Assembly (NCBI GenBank): GCA_013166835.1
Contig: JABLTI010000021.1
Location: 1-32,100, forward strand
From: Promethearchaeati archaeon
GTDB lineage: Archaea; Asgardarchaeota; Heimdallarchaeia; JABLTI01
Reading direction: 5' to 3'
Length of the DNA: 32,100 nt
The stretch's first letter is position 1; the number at the start of each line of letters is the position of its first letter. The notes beneath the pieces were generated by a model. That model saw only the letters and a list, made by a program, of their open reading frames with translations. It searched no databases and was not told where the DNA came from. A program made the translations under genes and the position numbers. This document shows, in pieces, positions 6,898 to 10,176 of the stretch.

Positions 6898-7917
6898 TTA
6901 TTTCTTCATTATATAACCAGTGAAACTTGGTGCCGGTAAATCTTTCATGGTTAGTACGCCAGGATTTGCATTCACTACTTTTGGAATAAGATTCACTATC
7001 ATTGAAGCGGTACCAACATCGCCATGAACTCCACCAATGATTTTCTGGTTGATTCCGGGAACTCCTTCGATTACAATACTATCATATTCCTCGTGATCGC
7101 CAGAATAAGCAAAGAAATCTAAAATAACGATTTCATGGTTACCTTTCATAGCTACTCCTCTGCTATGAAGTCCTCTAACATAACCCTCCGGAACTCTTCC
7201 AAAGGGACTATCAAATTCTTTCTCAGTAATCATAGCTTTTGGTGGAAATTCTACAATCTTGTCTACGTTTAATCCTAGAGCTGAAACAATCATTTGAATT
7301 GATTCTTCAAGTCCGACATGACCGGTGATTTCTTTATCACTAATTTTCTTGTTGAATTCACCAATTGTTAGATTAGTTCCAATTTTCTTCTGGAAAGGAA
7401 TTCTTCTACGACTTGAATTCATCATTCGGGTTACATGTATTTTTTCAACTGTTTCACATGGAGCTGTGAGTACTATTGGTAACAAATCCATTAAGTAACC
7501 AGGATTAATACCAGAACCTGTAACTGTAACCTTTTTCTCTTTCGCTAATTTGTCGATTTTTGTTGCTAATTCAGGATGGAAATCCCATGGGTAAGATAAT
7601 TGCTCACACATAGTAATTACATTAGCTCCTGCTTCAACAGCTTGAATTATCATTGGGGCTATTGTTTCAAAAAATGATGAAGTTGCGATAATAACAACAT
7701 CAACTGTATTATTCAATAAAGGTTCAAGATTCTTTACTATTGGTAAATCTGGAACATCGGATAATTCAATAATTTCATTCAGTTTTTTACCTTCAAAAGC
7801 TGGATCAATATCTACGATTCCCAGGAAATTAACATTTTCTCGTTTCAATAGGAGTTTTGTCACTAGTTGACCCATTGGTCCAAATCCTACTTGTATCACA
7901 TTAAATTTTTCGCTCAA
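6898..7917 (-). CDS. NAD(P)-dependent dehydrogenase, DapB-related / 2,4-diaminopentanoate dehydrogenase-like family
   Basis: Rossmann GFGPMG, G-x-GINPG, GHVGLEES, GGVHGD-x-GT, PG-x-x-TM-x-DLP motifs; substrate unknown. Confidence 0.8.
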   Translation of the reverse strand: MSEKFNVIQVGFGPMGQLVTKLLLKRENVNFLGIVDIDPAFEGKKLNEIIELSDVPDLPIVKNLEPLLNNTVDVVIIATSSFFETIAPMIIQAVEAGANVITMCEQLSYPWDFHPELATKIDKLAKEKKVTVTGSGINPGYLMDLLPIVLTAPCETVEKIHVTRMMNSSRRRIPFQKKIGTNLTIGEFNKKISDKEITGHVGLEESIQMIVSALGLNVDKIVEFPPKAMITEKEFDSPFGRVPEGYVRGLHSRGVAMKGNHEIVILDFFAYSGDHEEYDSIVIEGVPGINQKIIGGVHGDVGTASMIVNLIPKVVNANPGVLTMKDLPAPSFTGYIMKK

Positions 7918-8025
7918 TTAAAAACCTCACTTTATTCTACTTTTTATTCTGATGTAAGTTTTAGCATTAAAATTTTTTTTGTTAGATATTTTGAATGAAA
8001 AACACTAGAAAAAACAAGAAAAATT

Positions 8026-8098
8026 GTGGCTCAGCTACCCCAGTTTAGCTCATTGTCTTGCACAAGACTAGCCAGACCGTACGTCACATCATAGCCAT
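8026..8098 (-). ncRNA. Box C/D 2'-O-methylation guide sRNA, probably double guide
   Basis: Terminal stem UGGC/GCCA, 3-nt bulge, box C AUGAUGU (8086-8092), box D CUGA (8031-8034), internal stem GUCUU/AAGAC with atypical D'/C'; GC-rich island with upstream AT-rich promoter and downstream U-tract; both spacers antisense to conserved 23S domain V sequences. Confidence 0.8.
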
Positions 8099-8213
8099 AG
8101 AATAATTGCAAACAAAATCAATTAAATTTATTGATTAAATTCATTTGTTTATTAACTAAATCAAAATCAACTTGCGCTAAAGTTATTAAGTTTGTATTAT
8201 CAAATTCATTGTA

Positions 8214-8903
8214 ATGACTAATGAAAACAACTCTAAAACTAATAATCGTTTTTCCATTCCAAAAGTTTATGATCTAATTGCTGAAAGCTTTGACTCCAAA
8301 AGACGACATCCTTGGAAAGAAGTTATTCAATTTATCAAGCAGCTACCATCAACAAATCGGATTTTAGACTTAGGTTGTGGAAATGCTCGTCATACAAGCG
8401 TTATGCTCGAGAGAAATTTCGAAGCTATTGGTTTAGATATCTCATATAGAATACTACAAGCAGCAAAAGAAAACGAATTATCTTTAGTAAAAGATAAACT
8501 TACTAGTTTAATTAATGGTGACGCAAGAGTTCTTCCTTTTAAGAATAAAGTATTTAACAATGTCATAATGATTGCAGTACTTCATCATTTTGAGTCAAAA
8601 GATGACCGGCTGGAAATTTTACGAGAAATCATGCGAGTCTTAACAGAAAATGGCACTTGTCTTATTAGTACTTGGCTGAGGACGCATCCAAGATTCCAAA
8701 AAGAGGATTTATCTGAAATAGTAAAATTAGGAAAAAAAGACATCTTAGTCCCTTGGACTCTCCCAGATGGAAAGAAAATTAATCGGTATTATTACCTCTT
8801 TGATAAAGAAGAACTTGAAGCAATAGTTCTACAACTAGATTTTAAGATATTAAATAGCGAGATATCCAATCATAATTTGTTTTTAACAGTTAAAAAAACA
8901 TAA
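8214..8903 (+). CDS. Class I SAM methyltransferase, Trm9/ALKBH8-like tRNA U34 carboxymethyl methyltransferase candidate
   Basis: VYDLIAESFDSKRRHPW, LDLGCGNAR, IAVLHH, D-x-LVPW and RYYYLF-x-x-x-EL match the Trm9 family pattern. Confidence 0.8.
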   Translation: MTNENNSKTNNRFSIPKVYDLIAESFDSKRRHPWKEVIQFIKQLPSTNRILDLGCGNARHTSVMLERNFEAIGLDISYRILQAAKENELSLVKDKLTSLINGDARVLPFKNKVFNNVIMIAVLHHFESKDDRLEILREIMRVLTENGTCLISTWLRTHPRFQKEDLSEIVKLGKKDILVPWTLPDGKKINRYYYLFDKEELEAIVLQLDFKILNSEISNHNLFLTVKKT

Positions 8904-9030: not shown

Positions 9031-10176
9031 ATGATTAAGAAAATAAAACGATTATATCATCGAAGAAAAGCAGTAAGCCCAGTTGTTGCTGCTCTTCTCT
9101 TAATAGCTCTAACTGTTGCAGCAGTTGCTATTGTTTATTTTGTAATAATTCCAATATTTCAAAGACATAGAATTGAGATTTCTATTGATAATATTAAGGA
9201 TACCAATAAGGACTCATTGTTTGATGAAATTTCACTGTATATTGTGAATACTGGTACAAAAACAGTGGAAATTACAAATGTTACTGTTTGGACAGCAACT
9301 ACTAATGACCTTGGGAACTCGGATAACTGGATCCCTCATCTGGATTGGACTTTTGATAATCCTGCTCAAGCTACCTCTGATCCCTCTGAAGTGTATTCAG
9401 CAAAAGTAAGCGGTGATAATCAAATTGGTTTAACAATTTGGGAAAATACCTATTATCGTTTAGAAATTCAGTACACTGGAAGCAAAACTGCGTATTTTAG
9501 TGATTGGATTTCCTTAAATGATCAAGTGGATCTATTTGACATACTTACTAACTTTTCACAATTTAACTTAACCGCTTCGGGTTTTGAAGGAACAATCGAT
9601 GATCCAAGTCGAGCTGCAAATAATTACTTGACAAATACTGATGGTGATTGGCAATTAAATGAAGACGCTGTTAAACTTCTACCAGTATTAGATGAAACAC
9701 AATATGTTCCATTTTATATTGGTTCACAAATAGTTGTTTTTCACTCAATAAATGGTAACTTAACTGAACAGCCACTCGTGCAAACTTTTGATATAAGTAG
9801 TAATCCATTTAGAGCAAGTAAATTCTTCATCTTAGGATTAGCTGGATCTTGGGGTGACAATTTTGCAACTAATGATTGGGCTGTTAATTTAACGTTTGTT
9901 TATACAGATGATTCAACTAATAACTATCTTATGAATCATTCATACGTTGATGATTGGTGGTATGATGCAAATCCTGGTGGCATTTGTATTTCCGCTGCAA
10001 CAGGTGCAGTTACAGAAATAGACCTTGGCACACAAGCTGATACTCCTCACTCTCACATTCATACCCATACAACTAGATTTTACTTGGATTATTTCAAATA
10101 TCTTAAAGCTGTTATTTTTGCTGATCCTGGTGATGATCAATCAGGCGGACATTTACTATCACTAACGTTTAGATAA
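9031..10176 (+). CDS. Large type IV pilin-like protein with class III signal peptide, paralog 1
   Basis: RRKA|VSPVVAALLLIALTVAAVAIVY prepilin motif; large Asn/Asp/Thr-rich ectodomain; GGTGG RBS. Confidence 0.85.
   Translation: MIKKIKRLYHRRKAVSPVVAALLLIALTVAAVAIVYFVIIPIFQRHRIEISIDNIKDTNKDSLFDEISLYIVNTGTKTVEITNVTVWTATTNDLGNSDNWIPHLDWTFDNPAQATSDPSEVYSAKVSGDNQIGLTIWENTYYRLEIQYTGSKTAYFSDWISLNDQVDLFDILTNFSQFNLTASGFEGTIDDPSRAANNYLTNTDGDWQLNEDAVKLLPVLDETQYVPFYIGSQIVVFHSINGNLTEQPLVQTFDISSNPFRASKFFILGLAGSWGDNFATNDWAVNLTFVYTDDSTNNYLMNHSYVDDWWYDANPGGICISAATGAVTEIDLGTQADTPHSHIHTHTTRFYLDYFKYLKAVIFADPGDDQSGGHLLSLTFR

What the first reader, a model, noticed from the sequence alone, without database searches (positions are those of the whole stretch)
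8026..8098. Box C/D guide RNA that may be an Asgard counterpart of eukaryotic snR73/SNORD35 (U35)
Seen: the minus strand reads UGGC-UAU-GAUGU-GACGUACGGUCUG-GCUA-GUCUU-GUGC-AAGAC-AAU-GAGC-UAAA-CUGGGGUAG-CUGA-GCCA. This gives a canonical C/D kink-turn (4-bp stem, 3-nt bulge, tandem G.A, U.U, G-C) and an internal atypical K-turn (D'=GCUA, C'=AUGAGC) closed by a 5-bp stem. Knowledge: the archaeal/eukaryotic LSU has (U/C)AGACCGUCGUG at E. coli-equivalent 2586-2597. The D' guide ACGGUCUG pairs 8 nt there, plus 3 more after a one-base bulge. The D+5 rule selects the C at E. coli-equivalent 2590, which is yeast Cm2959 (snR73) and the human site guided by SNORD35. From memory, human U35 also has box C AUGAUGU and a D' guide ending GGUCUG. 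Inference: a guide RNA shared between Asgard archaea and eukaryotes, with a eukaryote-like relaxed C'/D'.
Basis: partly seen in the sequence, partly recalled or inferred. Interest (0 to 1): 0.85.

Follow-up and report, generated by a model that had tools for sequence, protein, structure and literature searches.

The report
Heimdall archaeal C/D box methylation guide RNA
This is a genuine small guide RNA gene of a Heimdall-type Asgard archaeon that most likely directs ribose methylation of one cytidine in the catalytic centre of the large ribosomal RNA, the same site that yeast snR73 and human SNORD35 guide, but the same guide also occurs in non-Asgard archaea, so it is an old archaeal feature rather than a special Asgard-eukaryote link.

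Summary
The minus strand 8097-8027 reads as a box C/D RNA with a 4-bp terminal stem, box C ATGATGT and box D CTGA. It lies in a 296-nt ORF-free, AT-rich spacer. It is conserved in 9 of 11 family relatives at 82-100% identity while the flanks decay.

Complementarity alone does not establish the target: 183 of 300 shuffled guides pair with rRNA as well. Comparison does. The same guide core (ACGGTCT, one base before the D' position) follows box C in full C/D sRNAs of:
- 22 of 22 genomes of a sister family and 8 of 31 of another;
- two other Asgard lineages;
- at least 6 of 251 genomes of a non-Asgard phylum.

The guide co-varies with the rRNA: A opposite U, or G opposite C, at E. coli 2594. The N+5 rule selects E. 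coli 2590. I equate this with yeast Cm2959 and human Cm4506 by recalled numbering.

The window's family is a variant, with a one-base insertion in the guide, D' GCTA instead of CTGA, and an internal hairpin. Rfam SNORD35 does not match. The Asgard-only link is refuted. Expression and methylation are untested.

The parts
8115..8135 (-). Conserved A/T-rich upstream block with a TATA-like core (8130-8121), centred about 28 nt before the 5' stem. Putative archaeal promoter.
   Evidence: Conserved in the 10-genome alignment while the sequence between it and the RNA varies. Promoter function is inferred from position only.
8094..8097 (-). 5' half of the terminal stem (TGGC).
   Evidence: Pairs with 8030-8027. 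All 4 pairs are invariant in 8 distinct sequences, so there is no covariation.
8086..8092 (-). Box C, ATGATGT.
   Evidence: Invariant in 10 of 10 copies. The base before it (8093) varies T/A/G, as expected for a bulge base.
8073..8085 (-). D' guide (13 nt). Its core ACGGTCT (8080-8074) pairs with the 23S site. G at 8077 is the fifth base before D' and pairs with the C at E. coli 2590. T at 8081 is the extra (bulged) base.
   Evidence: pairing; 11 of 13 positions invariant; the two that vary are 8085, which is unpaired in the model, and 8073, next to the box. (same guide elsewhere). (covariation with rRNA).
8069..8072 (-). Degenerate D' box, GCTA.
   Evidence: Invariant in 10 of 10 copies. It has the same position relative to the guide core as CCGA/CGGA/CTGA in the sister family. 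It lacks the consensus GA.
8055..8068 (-). Internal hairpin (5 bp here, 3-5 bp in relatives).
   Evidence: The base GTC/GAC is invariant; there is no covariation. Sister-family copies have 13-35-nt hairpins at the same place.
8047..8053 (-). C' box, ATGAGCT (only TGA is invariant).
   Evidence: Relatives read ATGATCG, CTGAGCT and ATGAGCA.
8035..8046 (-). D guide (12 nt). Its best rRNA match is 9 pairs with a 23S stretch that I aligned by eye to E. coli 2437-2445, with the fifth base opposite about 2441.
   Evidence: Weak: 39 of 300 (relative's copy) or 96 of 300 (window copy) shuffles do as well. The guide differs in the other genus, G011.
8031..8034 (-). Box D, CTGA.
   Evidence: Invariant in 10 of 10 copies.
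8027..8030 (-). 3' half of the terminal stem (GCCA).
8007..8023 (-). T-rich tract directly after the RNA. Putative archaeal terminator.
   Evidence: T-rich in most but not all relatives. Inferred, not tested.
6898..7917 (-). Downstream gene on the same strand: a 2,4-diaminopentanoate dehydrogenase-like oxidoreductase with a DapB-like N-terminus. Context only.
   Evidence: Pfam DAP_DH_C 3.9e-36. Neighbour of the RNA in 10 of 10 family loci.
8214..8903 (+). Divergent upstream gene: a class I SAM-dependent methyltransferase. Context only.
   Evidence: Pfam Methyltransf_11 2.6e-17. Neighbour in 10 of 10 family loci.

Best explanation
The minus strand 8097-8027 is an independently transcribed archaeal box C/D sRNA gene of a Heimdall-type Asgard archaeon. 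The RNA would assemble with L7Ae, Nop5 and fibrillarin, all of which the genome encodes. Its D' guide pairs with helix-90 sequence of 23S rRNA in the peptidyl-transferase region and places the C at E. coli position 2590 opposite the fifth base before D', for 2'-O-methylation. I equate that C with yeast Cm2959 and human Cm4506.

The RNA is the local version of a guide that is widespread in Archaea, in both Asgard lineages and a non-Asgard phylum. In this family the guide has gained one inserted base, so the pairing is 8 pairs, a bulge, then 3 pairs. The D' box has decayed to GCTA, and a short hairpin separates D' from C'. The D guide probably targets a second site in the same rRNA domain (about E. 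coli 2441), but that assignment is weak.

Shown: sequence anatomy, conservation, presence of the target sequence in relatives' 23S, the same guide in other lineages, guide-rRNA covariation between families, and presence of the protein genes.

Inferred: transcription, RNP assembly on the degenerate C'/D', the methylation itself, and the exact nucleotide (2590 rather than 2591).
For: - Anatomy.
- Conservation: the RNA is 82-100% identical in 9 relatives while the downstream flank falls to 19%. The CM finds it in 9 of 11 family relatives. Synteny holds in 10 of 10 loci.
- Protein partners: fibrillarin and Nop5 are adjacent on contig C173, and there are two L7Ae-family ORFs.
- Target sequence: the 23S site is present in 5 of 5 same-genus 23S genes.
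- D' guide conservation: invariant at 11 of 13 positions. The two variable ones are unpaired in the model or next to the box. The D guide, by contrast, changes in the other genus.
- Sister family f3: the same guide core in the same register after box C occurs in 22 of 22 genomes. All 9 contexts inspected are full sRNAs.
- Family f2: 8 of 31 genomes. All 6 contexts inspected are full sRNAs with a terminal stem.
- Other Asgard lineages: 4 of 4 genomes of family f27 and 1 genome of f13.
- Non-Asgard phylum: 9 of 251 genomes, against 4 for the reversed control. Of the 9 contexts, 6 are clear sRNAs, 1 is ambiguous and 2 look like chance.
- Insertion: the canonical copies read ACGACGGTCT where the window reads ACGTACGGTCT, a single inserted base with the same end points of pairing.
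- Covariation: f2 and f4 23S have U at E. coli 2594 (4 of 4 genes), and f2 guides have A opposite it. f1 and f3 23S have C, and the f3, f27, f13 and non-Asgard guides have G. One f2 guide pairs over 12 contiguous positions.
- Numbering.
Against: - Complementarity alone is not significant: 183 of 300 shuffled D' guides find an anchored rRNA match at least as good.
- The window's own genome has no assembled rRNA, so the target is taken from relatives.
- D' lacks the GA dinucleotide that forms the tandem sheared pairs. Whether L7Ae and Nop5 assemble there is unknown.
- A one-base bulge after 8 pairs is unusual for archaeal guides.
- In family f2 the GA of the D'-like box lies one base closer to the guide core, so the selected base could be 2591 there. 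The register is therefore uncertain by one base.
- No stem shows covariation.
- The MFE fold is no better than shuffles.
- No Rfam C/D model matches.
- No RNA data exist (see Tried and rejected).
- The one f3 23S available reads C instead of G at E. coli 2588, which would mismatch its own guide. That rRNA lies on its own 4.7-kb contig of a MAG and may not belong to it.
Confidence: 0.72

Rival explanations
1. One reading: a guide RNA shared specifically between Asgard archaea and eukaryotes, that is, a direct Asgard orthologue of SNORD35/snR73 with a eukaryote-like relaxed C'/D'.
For: Same target nucleotide. D' is degenerate and an internal hairpin is present in the Heimdall-type class copies. 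A nucleomorph snoRNA for the same site also uses a D' guide (table passage).
Against: The same guide, mostly as a D' guide, is present in canonical sRNAs of a non-Asgard phylum. It is canonical in two other Asgard lineages. Rfam SNORD35 (RF00211) does not hit the locus among 9 matches at E <= 10 in the whole genome. No C/D family is found at E <= 10 in the region. Genomic context is not kept even between Heimdall-type families, so descent cannot be traced by synteny.
Confidence: 0.1
2. The RNA is a real C/D sRNA, but its D' half is catalytically dead. Without a GA in D', no second RNP half assembles. The conserved D' antisense element then only base-pairs with pre-rRNA, in a chaperone or bridging role, and only the D guide methylates.
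For: D' GCTA lacks both kink-turn purines. Pairing is interrupted by a bulge. The literature describes conserved guide-target pairings without methylation, and chaperone roles (passages). The guide could also pair over 10 positions (6 Watson-Crick, 4 G.U) with the A-loop strand 39 nt upstream, which would suit a bridging role.
Against: The A of D' (8069) and the TGA of C' are invariant and placed as in a kink-turn with a 3-nt bulge next to the hairpin. Sister-family copies keep a GA at this place. The fifth position before D' is a Watson-Crick G-C pair in all copies.
Confidence: 0.13
3. The D' guide targets the A loop (helix 92, E. coli 2548-2557) rather than helix 90.
For: This is the longest ungapped run in 3 of the 4 same-genus 23S genes scanned: 10 pairs, using the inserted T. 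It is absent from G006. The G010 23S, not scanned, carries the same sequence. A-loop methylation is common in archaea (section read).
Against: Four of the 10 pairs are G.U, including the pair at the fifth position, which would be a wobble at U2551. In one same-genus 23S (G006) the A-loop base that pairs with the inserted T differs, though no sRNA copy was found in that genome. The comparative evidence (the same core in other families, covariation at 2594) points to helix 90.
Confidence: 0.04
4. It is not a trans-acting RNA but a structured 5' leader or L7Ae-binding regulatory element of the downstream dehydrogenase mRNA.
For: It lies about 110 nt upstream of, and on the same strand as, the DAP-dehydrogenase-like gene in 10 of 10 loci. 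L7Ae-bound kink-turns in mRNAs are reported (abstract seen in the listing).
Against: A T-rich tract follows the RNA. The guide is shared with sRNAs that lie in unrelated contexts in other families. The full C/D architecture with two 12-13-nt spacers is not needed for a leader.
Confidence: 0.02

Closest known systems
Archaeal box C/D sRNAs (for example the Pyrococcus, Sulfolobus and Pyrobaculum sR families; Rfam snoPyro_CD and sR models)
   Same: Box C and box D with a terminal stem forming a kink-turn. Two guides of 12-13 nt, each ending at a D-type box. A target in the peptidyl-transferase region of 23S, which is a known methylation hotspot (sections read). The partner proteins are encoded. 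Canonical relatives carrying the same D' guide give sub-threshold hits to these Rfam families.
   Different: 71 nt rather than about 55 nt. D' is GCTA and C' is only TGA. A 14-nt hairpin sits between D' and C' instead of a 3-9-nt loop. The guide pairs 8 + 3 with a bulge. No Rfam archaeal model hits it, even at E <= 10.
Eukaryotic SNORD35 (U35) / yeast snR73 / plant U35
   Same: They guide 2'-O-methylation of the same rRNA nucleotide: yeast C2959, human C4506, Arabidopsis C2949 (passages). The equivalence to E. coli 2590 rests on my recalled offset. They have a relaxed internal box pair.
   Different: No detectable sequence or structure similarity by the Rfam model RF00211. The eukaryotic genes are intron-encoded or independently processed; this one has its own putative promoter. 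The same guide exists in non-Asgard archaea, so the resemblance is at the level of an ancient target site.
The guide lineage found here in other archaea (Heimdall-type families f2 and f3; Asgard families f27 and f13; six genomes of a non-Asgard phylum)
   Same: Box C followed by a guide ending in ACGGTCT plus one base and then a D'-type box. The second guide is variable.
   Different: The others read ..CGACGGTCT..AAGACGGTCT or ..CAACGGTCT without the inserted T. D' is CTGA, CCGA or CGGA. The genomic neighbours differ: the f3 copy lies upstream of an ORF I read as a RIO-type kinase, from its translation and not tested.

Membership tests
Archaeal box C/D sRNA | Box C (RTGATGA) near the 5' end and box D (CTGA) near the 3' end | tested here: met
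   ATGATGT at 8092-8086 (last base T instead of A) and CTGA at 8034-8031. Both are invariant in 10 of 10 copies.
Archaeal box C/D sRNA | A terminal stem that closes a C/D kink-turn (3-nt bulge, tandem G.A/A.G) | tested here: met
   TGGC/GCCA, bulge T-A-T, then G.A, A.G, U.U and G-C can be written from the sequence. The pairs are invariant, so there is no covariation support. The three-dimensional fold is not testable here.
Archaeal box C/D sRNA | Internal D' (CTGA) and C' (TGATGA) boxes | tested here: not met
   D' is GCTA and C' is TGAGCT. Only the TGA of C' and the final TA of D' are invariant. Sister-family copies have CCGA, CGGA or CTGA.
Archaeal box C/D sRNA | About 12 nt between C and D' and between C' and D | tested here: met
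   13 nt and 12 nt. Three relatives have 13 nt before D.
Archaeal box C/D sRNA | Guide complementary to rRNA or tRNA, with a Watson-Crick pair at the fifth position before the box | tested here: inconclusive
   8 pairs (7 Watson-Crick) plus 3 after a bulge with relatives' 23S, with G-C at the fifth position. Not better than shuffles (183 of 300). Supported instead by homologous guides and covariation.
Archaeal box C/D sRNA | L7Ae, Nop5 and fibrillarin encoded in the genome | tested here: met
   PF01269 1.4e-95, PF01798 7.3e-62, PF01248 7.4e-28 and 2.2e-17.
Archaeal box C/D sRNA | A stable small transcript and guide-dependent 2'-O-methylation | not testable with these tools
   No RNA run holds the locus. 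No methylation data.
Archaeal box C/D sRNA | Match to a curated Rfam C/D model | tested here: not met
   No match at gathering score in the window. No C/D family at E <= 10 in 7950-8200.
SNORD35 / snR73 (Rfam RF00211 for SNORD35) | Score against the family covariance model | tested here: not met
   RF00211 searched over the whole genome at E <= 10 gives 9 matches, none at contig C3 8026-8098, and the best is 19.1 bits against a gathering score of 36. The snR73 model was not searched by its accession. The all-family scan of the region found no C/D family.
SNORD35 / snR73 (Rfam RF00211 for SNORD35) | Guides methylation of the LSU C equivalent to yeast C2959 / human C4506 | tested here: inconclusive
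   The predicted target is the C at E. coli 2590. Its equivalence to yeast 2959 rests on a recalled numbering offset (yeast U2921 = E. coli U2552) and on the helix-90 location stated. No yeast or human rRNA was available to align.
SNORD35 / snR73 (Rfam RF00211 for SNORD35) | Sequence similarity of the antisense element and boxes to U35/snR73 | not tested
No U35 or snR73 sequence was obtainable from a tool.

The most novel reading that the evidence does not exclude
The guide for this rRNA cytidine is one continuous RNA lineage from the common ancestor of TACK and Asgard archaea to eukaryotic U35/snR73. On this reading the Heimdall-type copies catch it in transition toward the eukaryotic form: a decayed D' box, an enlarged internal hairpin, and a functional antisense core shortened to about 8 pairs.
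Probability: 0.15. Interest if true: 0.65.

Novelty: new member of a known kind. Interest (0 to 1): 0.4.

Why it matters
The finding adds an apparently unannotated C/D sRNA to an Asgard genome. It also shows, by comparison across lineages and by covariation of guide and rRNA, that one eukaryotic methylation site in the peptidyl-transferase region (yeast Cm2959, human Cm4506) has a guide of the same design in several archaeal lineages. The site and its guide are therefore likely older than eukaryotes and older than Asgard archaea.

For RNA biologists, the Heimdall-type copies are natural experiments. They carry degenerate D' boxes, long internal hairpins, 8-pair antisense cores and, in this family, a bulged guide. 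These test how much of the archaeal symmetric RNP design can be relaxed.

The finding does not open a new kind of system.

Tried and rejected
- **Thermodynamic folding** of the 73-nt stretch gave -20.1 kcal/mol and z -0.67, with 49 of 200 shuffles as good. This is uninformative, as expected for C/D RNAs.
- **Stem covariation.** All 11 pairs never vary or only break, so there is no support either way. By eye, the pair flanking D'/C' changes from G.T to C-G in three genomes but is G/A in G011. I did not count this as evidence.
- **Perfect complements of either guide in the own genome:** none other than the antisense strand itself.
- **tRNA targets.** Aragorn found only 20 tRNAs, and the best runs contain many G.U pairs or do not start at the box.
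- **A 10-mer scan of the own genome** for other guides to the helix 90-93 stretch gave only noise from AT-rich words.
- **A strict pattern scan of the own genome** for further C/D sRNAs gave 29 candidates. Most looked like coding sequence by eye, and ORFs were not checked. No typical guide length could be derived.
- **A look-alike in G008** (contig C16) has a 12-nt perfect complement to the 23S site, but it lies inside a 631-aa ORF and lacks box D. I rejected it as chance.
- **Pattern hits rejected or left open.** L118-L124 and most of L061-L084 and L089-L090 look like coding or chance matches. L062 and L064 are ambiguous. The reversed-pattern control was nearly as frequent as the pattern.
- **RNA runs.** No RNA holder was listed among the 23 runs returned. 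Twenty hold the stretch or part of it, and none of those is on record as RNA.
- **Synteny between families.** Neither neighbour gene of the window is found beside the f2, f3, f27 or non-Asgard copies (17 loci).
- **Literature.** Searches 'Asgard / box sRNA / fibrillarin / methylation' (37 papers) and 'Asgard / C D box / snoRNA' (21 papers) listed no catalogue of Asgard C/D sRNAs. I saw listings only, apart from the passages cited. Supplementary tables of Dennis 2015 and Lui 2018 list the predicted archaeal sites and could show that this site is already recorded.
Full report
**What is there**

From 5' to 3' the parts are:

| Part | Sequence | Window coordinates |
|---|---|---|
| 5' stem | TGGC | 8097-8094 |
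| Unpaired base | T | 8093 |
| Box C | ATGATGT | 8092-8086 |
| D' guide | 13 nt | 8085-8073 |
| D' position | GCTA | 8072-8069 |
| Internal hairpin | 5 bp with a 4-nt loop | 8068-8055 |
| C' position | ATGAGCT | 8053-8047 |
| D guide | 12 nt | 8046-8035 |
| Box D | CTGA | 8034-8031 |
| 3' stem | GCCA | 8030-8027 |
| T-rich tract | | 8023-8007 |

It has 51% G+C, while the rest of the spacer has 19-20% and the genome 34%.

MFE folding is no better than shuffles (z -0.67). No Rfam family matches, neither at gathering score in the window nor any C/D family at E <= 10 in 7950-8200.

**Whose genome**

The assembly has 260 contigs and is 84.75% complete. It contains neither 23S nor 16S rRNA. Its fibrillarin is 96-99% identical to those of MAGs labelled Candidatus Heimdallarchaeota, so the Asgard attribution holds. 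Fibrillarin and Nop5 are adjacent on contig C173, and there are two L7Ae-family ORFs.

**Is it a gene?**

- blastn of 8000-8130 against 40 relatives found clear homologues in 8 of 10 same-genus genomes and in the single genome of the other genus of the family (E 6e-50 to 2e-14). It found nothing convincing in the 29 genomes of other families.
- A covariance model built from the 10 copies gave the same picture over all 83 genomes of the class. It hit 9 of 11 family relatives, and the best hit elsewhere had E 0.075.
- In the three most distant same-genus copies only the RNA aligns (query 34-104).
- Identity to the window copy is 82-100% within the RNA, against 19-84% in the 37 nt downstream and 53-91% in the 43 nt upstream.
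- The upstream conservation is a block with a TATA-like core about 28 nt before the stem. I read this as the promoter, by inference.
- All 10 copies lie between a class I methyltransferase gene and a 2,4-diaminopentanoate-dehydrogenase-like gene. Those proteins have diverged to 50-62% identity.
- The stems never vary, so covariation neither supports nor contradicts them.

**The target: what complementarity alone shows**

The 23S genes of five same-genus relatives all carry the site.

This is not evidence by itself. Of 300 shuffled guides, 183 found an anchored match at least as good in the 5.8 kb of a relative's 23S plus 16S. Several other 8-10-pair runs exist in 23S.

The D guide pairs over 9 positions with a stretch that I aligned by eye to E. 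coli 2437-2445. Of 300 shuffles, 39 (relative's copy) or 96 (window copy) do as well. That assignment is weak. The D guide is also different in the other genus.

Neither guide has a perfect complement in the own genome or a good tRNA match among the 20 tRNAs found.

**The target: what comparison shows**

The D' guide is invariant at 11 of 13 positions in the 10 copies. The two variable positions are the 5'-most base, which is unpaired in the model, and the base next to D'.

The same core, ACGGTCT in the same register, turns up behind box C in other lineages.

- **Sister family f3.** All 22 of 22 genomes carry box C, four bases, then GACGGTCT. The nine contexts I inspected are all complete sRNAs. 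Each has a D'-type box (CCGA, CGGA or CTGA) one base after the core, a 13-35-nt hairpin, a C' box, a conserved second guide and box D.
- **Family f2.** 8 of 31 genomes carry box C followed by ..CAACGGTCT. The six contexts inspected are complete sRNAs with a 6-bp terminal stem.
- **Outside the class but within the phylum.** 4 of 4 genomes of family f27 (1.3-1.4 Mb) and one genome of f13 have fully canonical sRNAs with ..CGACGGTCT, one base, then CTGA.
- **A different phylum.** I used the phylum of a MAG labelled Candidatus Bathyarchaeota, which I take to be Thermoproteota. The strict pattern matched 9 of 251 sampled genomes, against 4 for the reversed control. Of the 9 contexts, six are canonical about 55-nt sRNAs, one is ambiguous and two look like chance.

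These canonical copies read ACGACGGTCT where the window reads ACGTACGGTCT. The window's guide is therefore the common archaeal guide with one inserted base, and its pairing has the same two end points.

**Guide and rRNA co-vary**

- The 23S of f2 (three genera) and of f4 reads T at E. coli 2594, in 4 of 4 genes. The five f1 genes and the one f3 gene read C.
- The f2 guides have A opposite that position. The f3, f27, f13 and non-Asgard guides have G.
- In G016 the guide pairs with its own 23S over 12 contiguous positions. Its second guide pairs 32 nt upstream in the A-loop stem.

This is the strongest single argument that the lineage acts on this site.

One observation goes the other way. The only f3 23S I had reads C at E. 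coli 2588, which would mismatch its guide. That rRNA lies on its own 4.7-kb contig of a MAG.

**Which nucleotide**

The A of GCTA (8069) abuts the hairpin. With the invariant TGA of C' and a 3-nt bulge, it can be drawn as a kink-turn whose second sheared pair is replaced by T-A. This register equals that of the f3 boxes. The fifth base before it (G 8077) pairs with the first C of the ACCGT stretch.

The annotated E. coli 23S copy I aligned is offset by -1. Its A-loop U is at 2551, where Dennis et al. give U2552. The target is therefore E. coli position 2590, where E. coli has A.

In f2 the GA of the D'-like box lies one base nearer the core. A one-base uncertainty (2590 or 2591) therefore remains.

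**The link to eukaryotes**

- Yeast snR73 guides Cm2959 in the helix-90 region (passages).
- Human SNORD35A/B guide 28S C4506, Arabidopsis U35 guides C2949, and a nucleomorph snoRNA uses a D' guide for the same site (table passages).
- That yeast 2959 equals E. coli 2590 rests on my recalled offset (yeast U2921 = E. coli U2552). I could not align a yeast rRNA.
- The Rfam SNORD35 model does not hit the locus.
- The canonical archaeal relatives give only sub-threshold hits, to archaeal sR families and not to SNORD35.

**Verdict**

What is shared is an old archaeal guide and target, not an Asgard-eukaryote speciality.

What is particular to this family is the inserted base in the guide, the loss of the GA in D' and the short internal hairpin. 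Relaxed D' boxes and long hairpins characterise this sRNA across the Heimdall-type class. They do not appear in the other Asgard lineages seen. Degenerate internal boxes are also known in Pyrobaculum (passage).

Transcription, RNP assembly on the degenerate C'/D' and the methylation itself remain untested.

Noticed in passing
L022, L023, L025, L029 (23S genes of same-genus relatives G008, G009, G006, G005): The 23S genes are 3259-4282 nt long, much longer than the 2987-position Rfam model. In G008 about 70 extra bases lie between the stretches that align to E. coli ~2454 and ~2470. These may be expansion segments or introns. I did not analyse them.
   Followed up: no
L026 (G020, family f2) about 4600: The 23S sequence breaks off into unrelated AT-rich sequence directly after the GTGAGA that follows the guide's target site, about E. 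coli 2600. This is probably an rRNA intron only a few bases from the predicted methylation site.
   Followed up: no
L072 494-1426 (-) and the f3 loci L155-L162: In family f3 the homologous sRNA ends 20-30 nt before a conserved ATGCC start. The ORF there looks like a winged-helix plus RIO-type kinase, judged by eye from the translation and without a Pfam run. That would make an sRNA gene a neighbour of a ribosome-biogenesis gene.
   Followed up: partly
L021 (G015 contig C57) 23S, site region: This 23S reads C where the nine other 23S genes examined read G (E. coli 2588), and it lacks the long insertions of the other Asgard 23S genes. It may be a contaminant contig in that MAG.
   Followed up: no
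G000 contig C28 16759-16800 (+): A 60-nt stretch has a box C-like ATGATGT, an internal CTGG / ATGAGA and a terminal CTGA. The 12 nt before its box D pair 11 of 12 with the 23S stretch just downstream of the helix-90 site. I did not check for coding context or conservation.
   Followed up: no
window 9031-10176 (+): An ORF with an archaeal type IV pilin N-terminal domain (Pfam Pilin_N, 5.4e-05, just below the curated cut-off).
   Followed up: no
G036 contigs C61 and C160 (L066): The same 21-nt pattern hit occurs twice in one genome, inside what reads like a repeated coding sequence for an Asp-rich repeat protein. It is unrelated to sRNAs.
   Followed up: no
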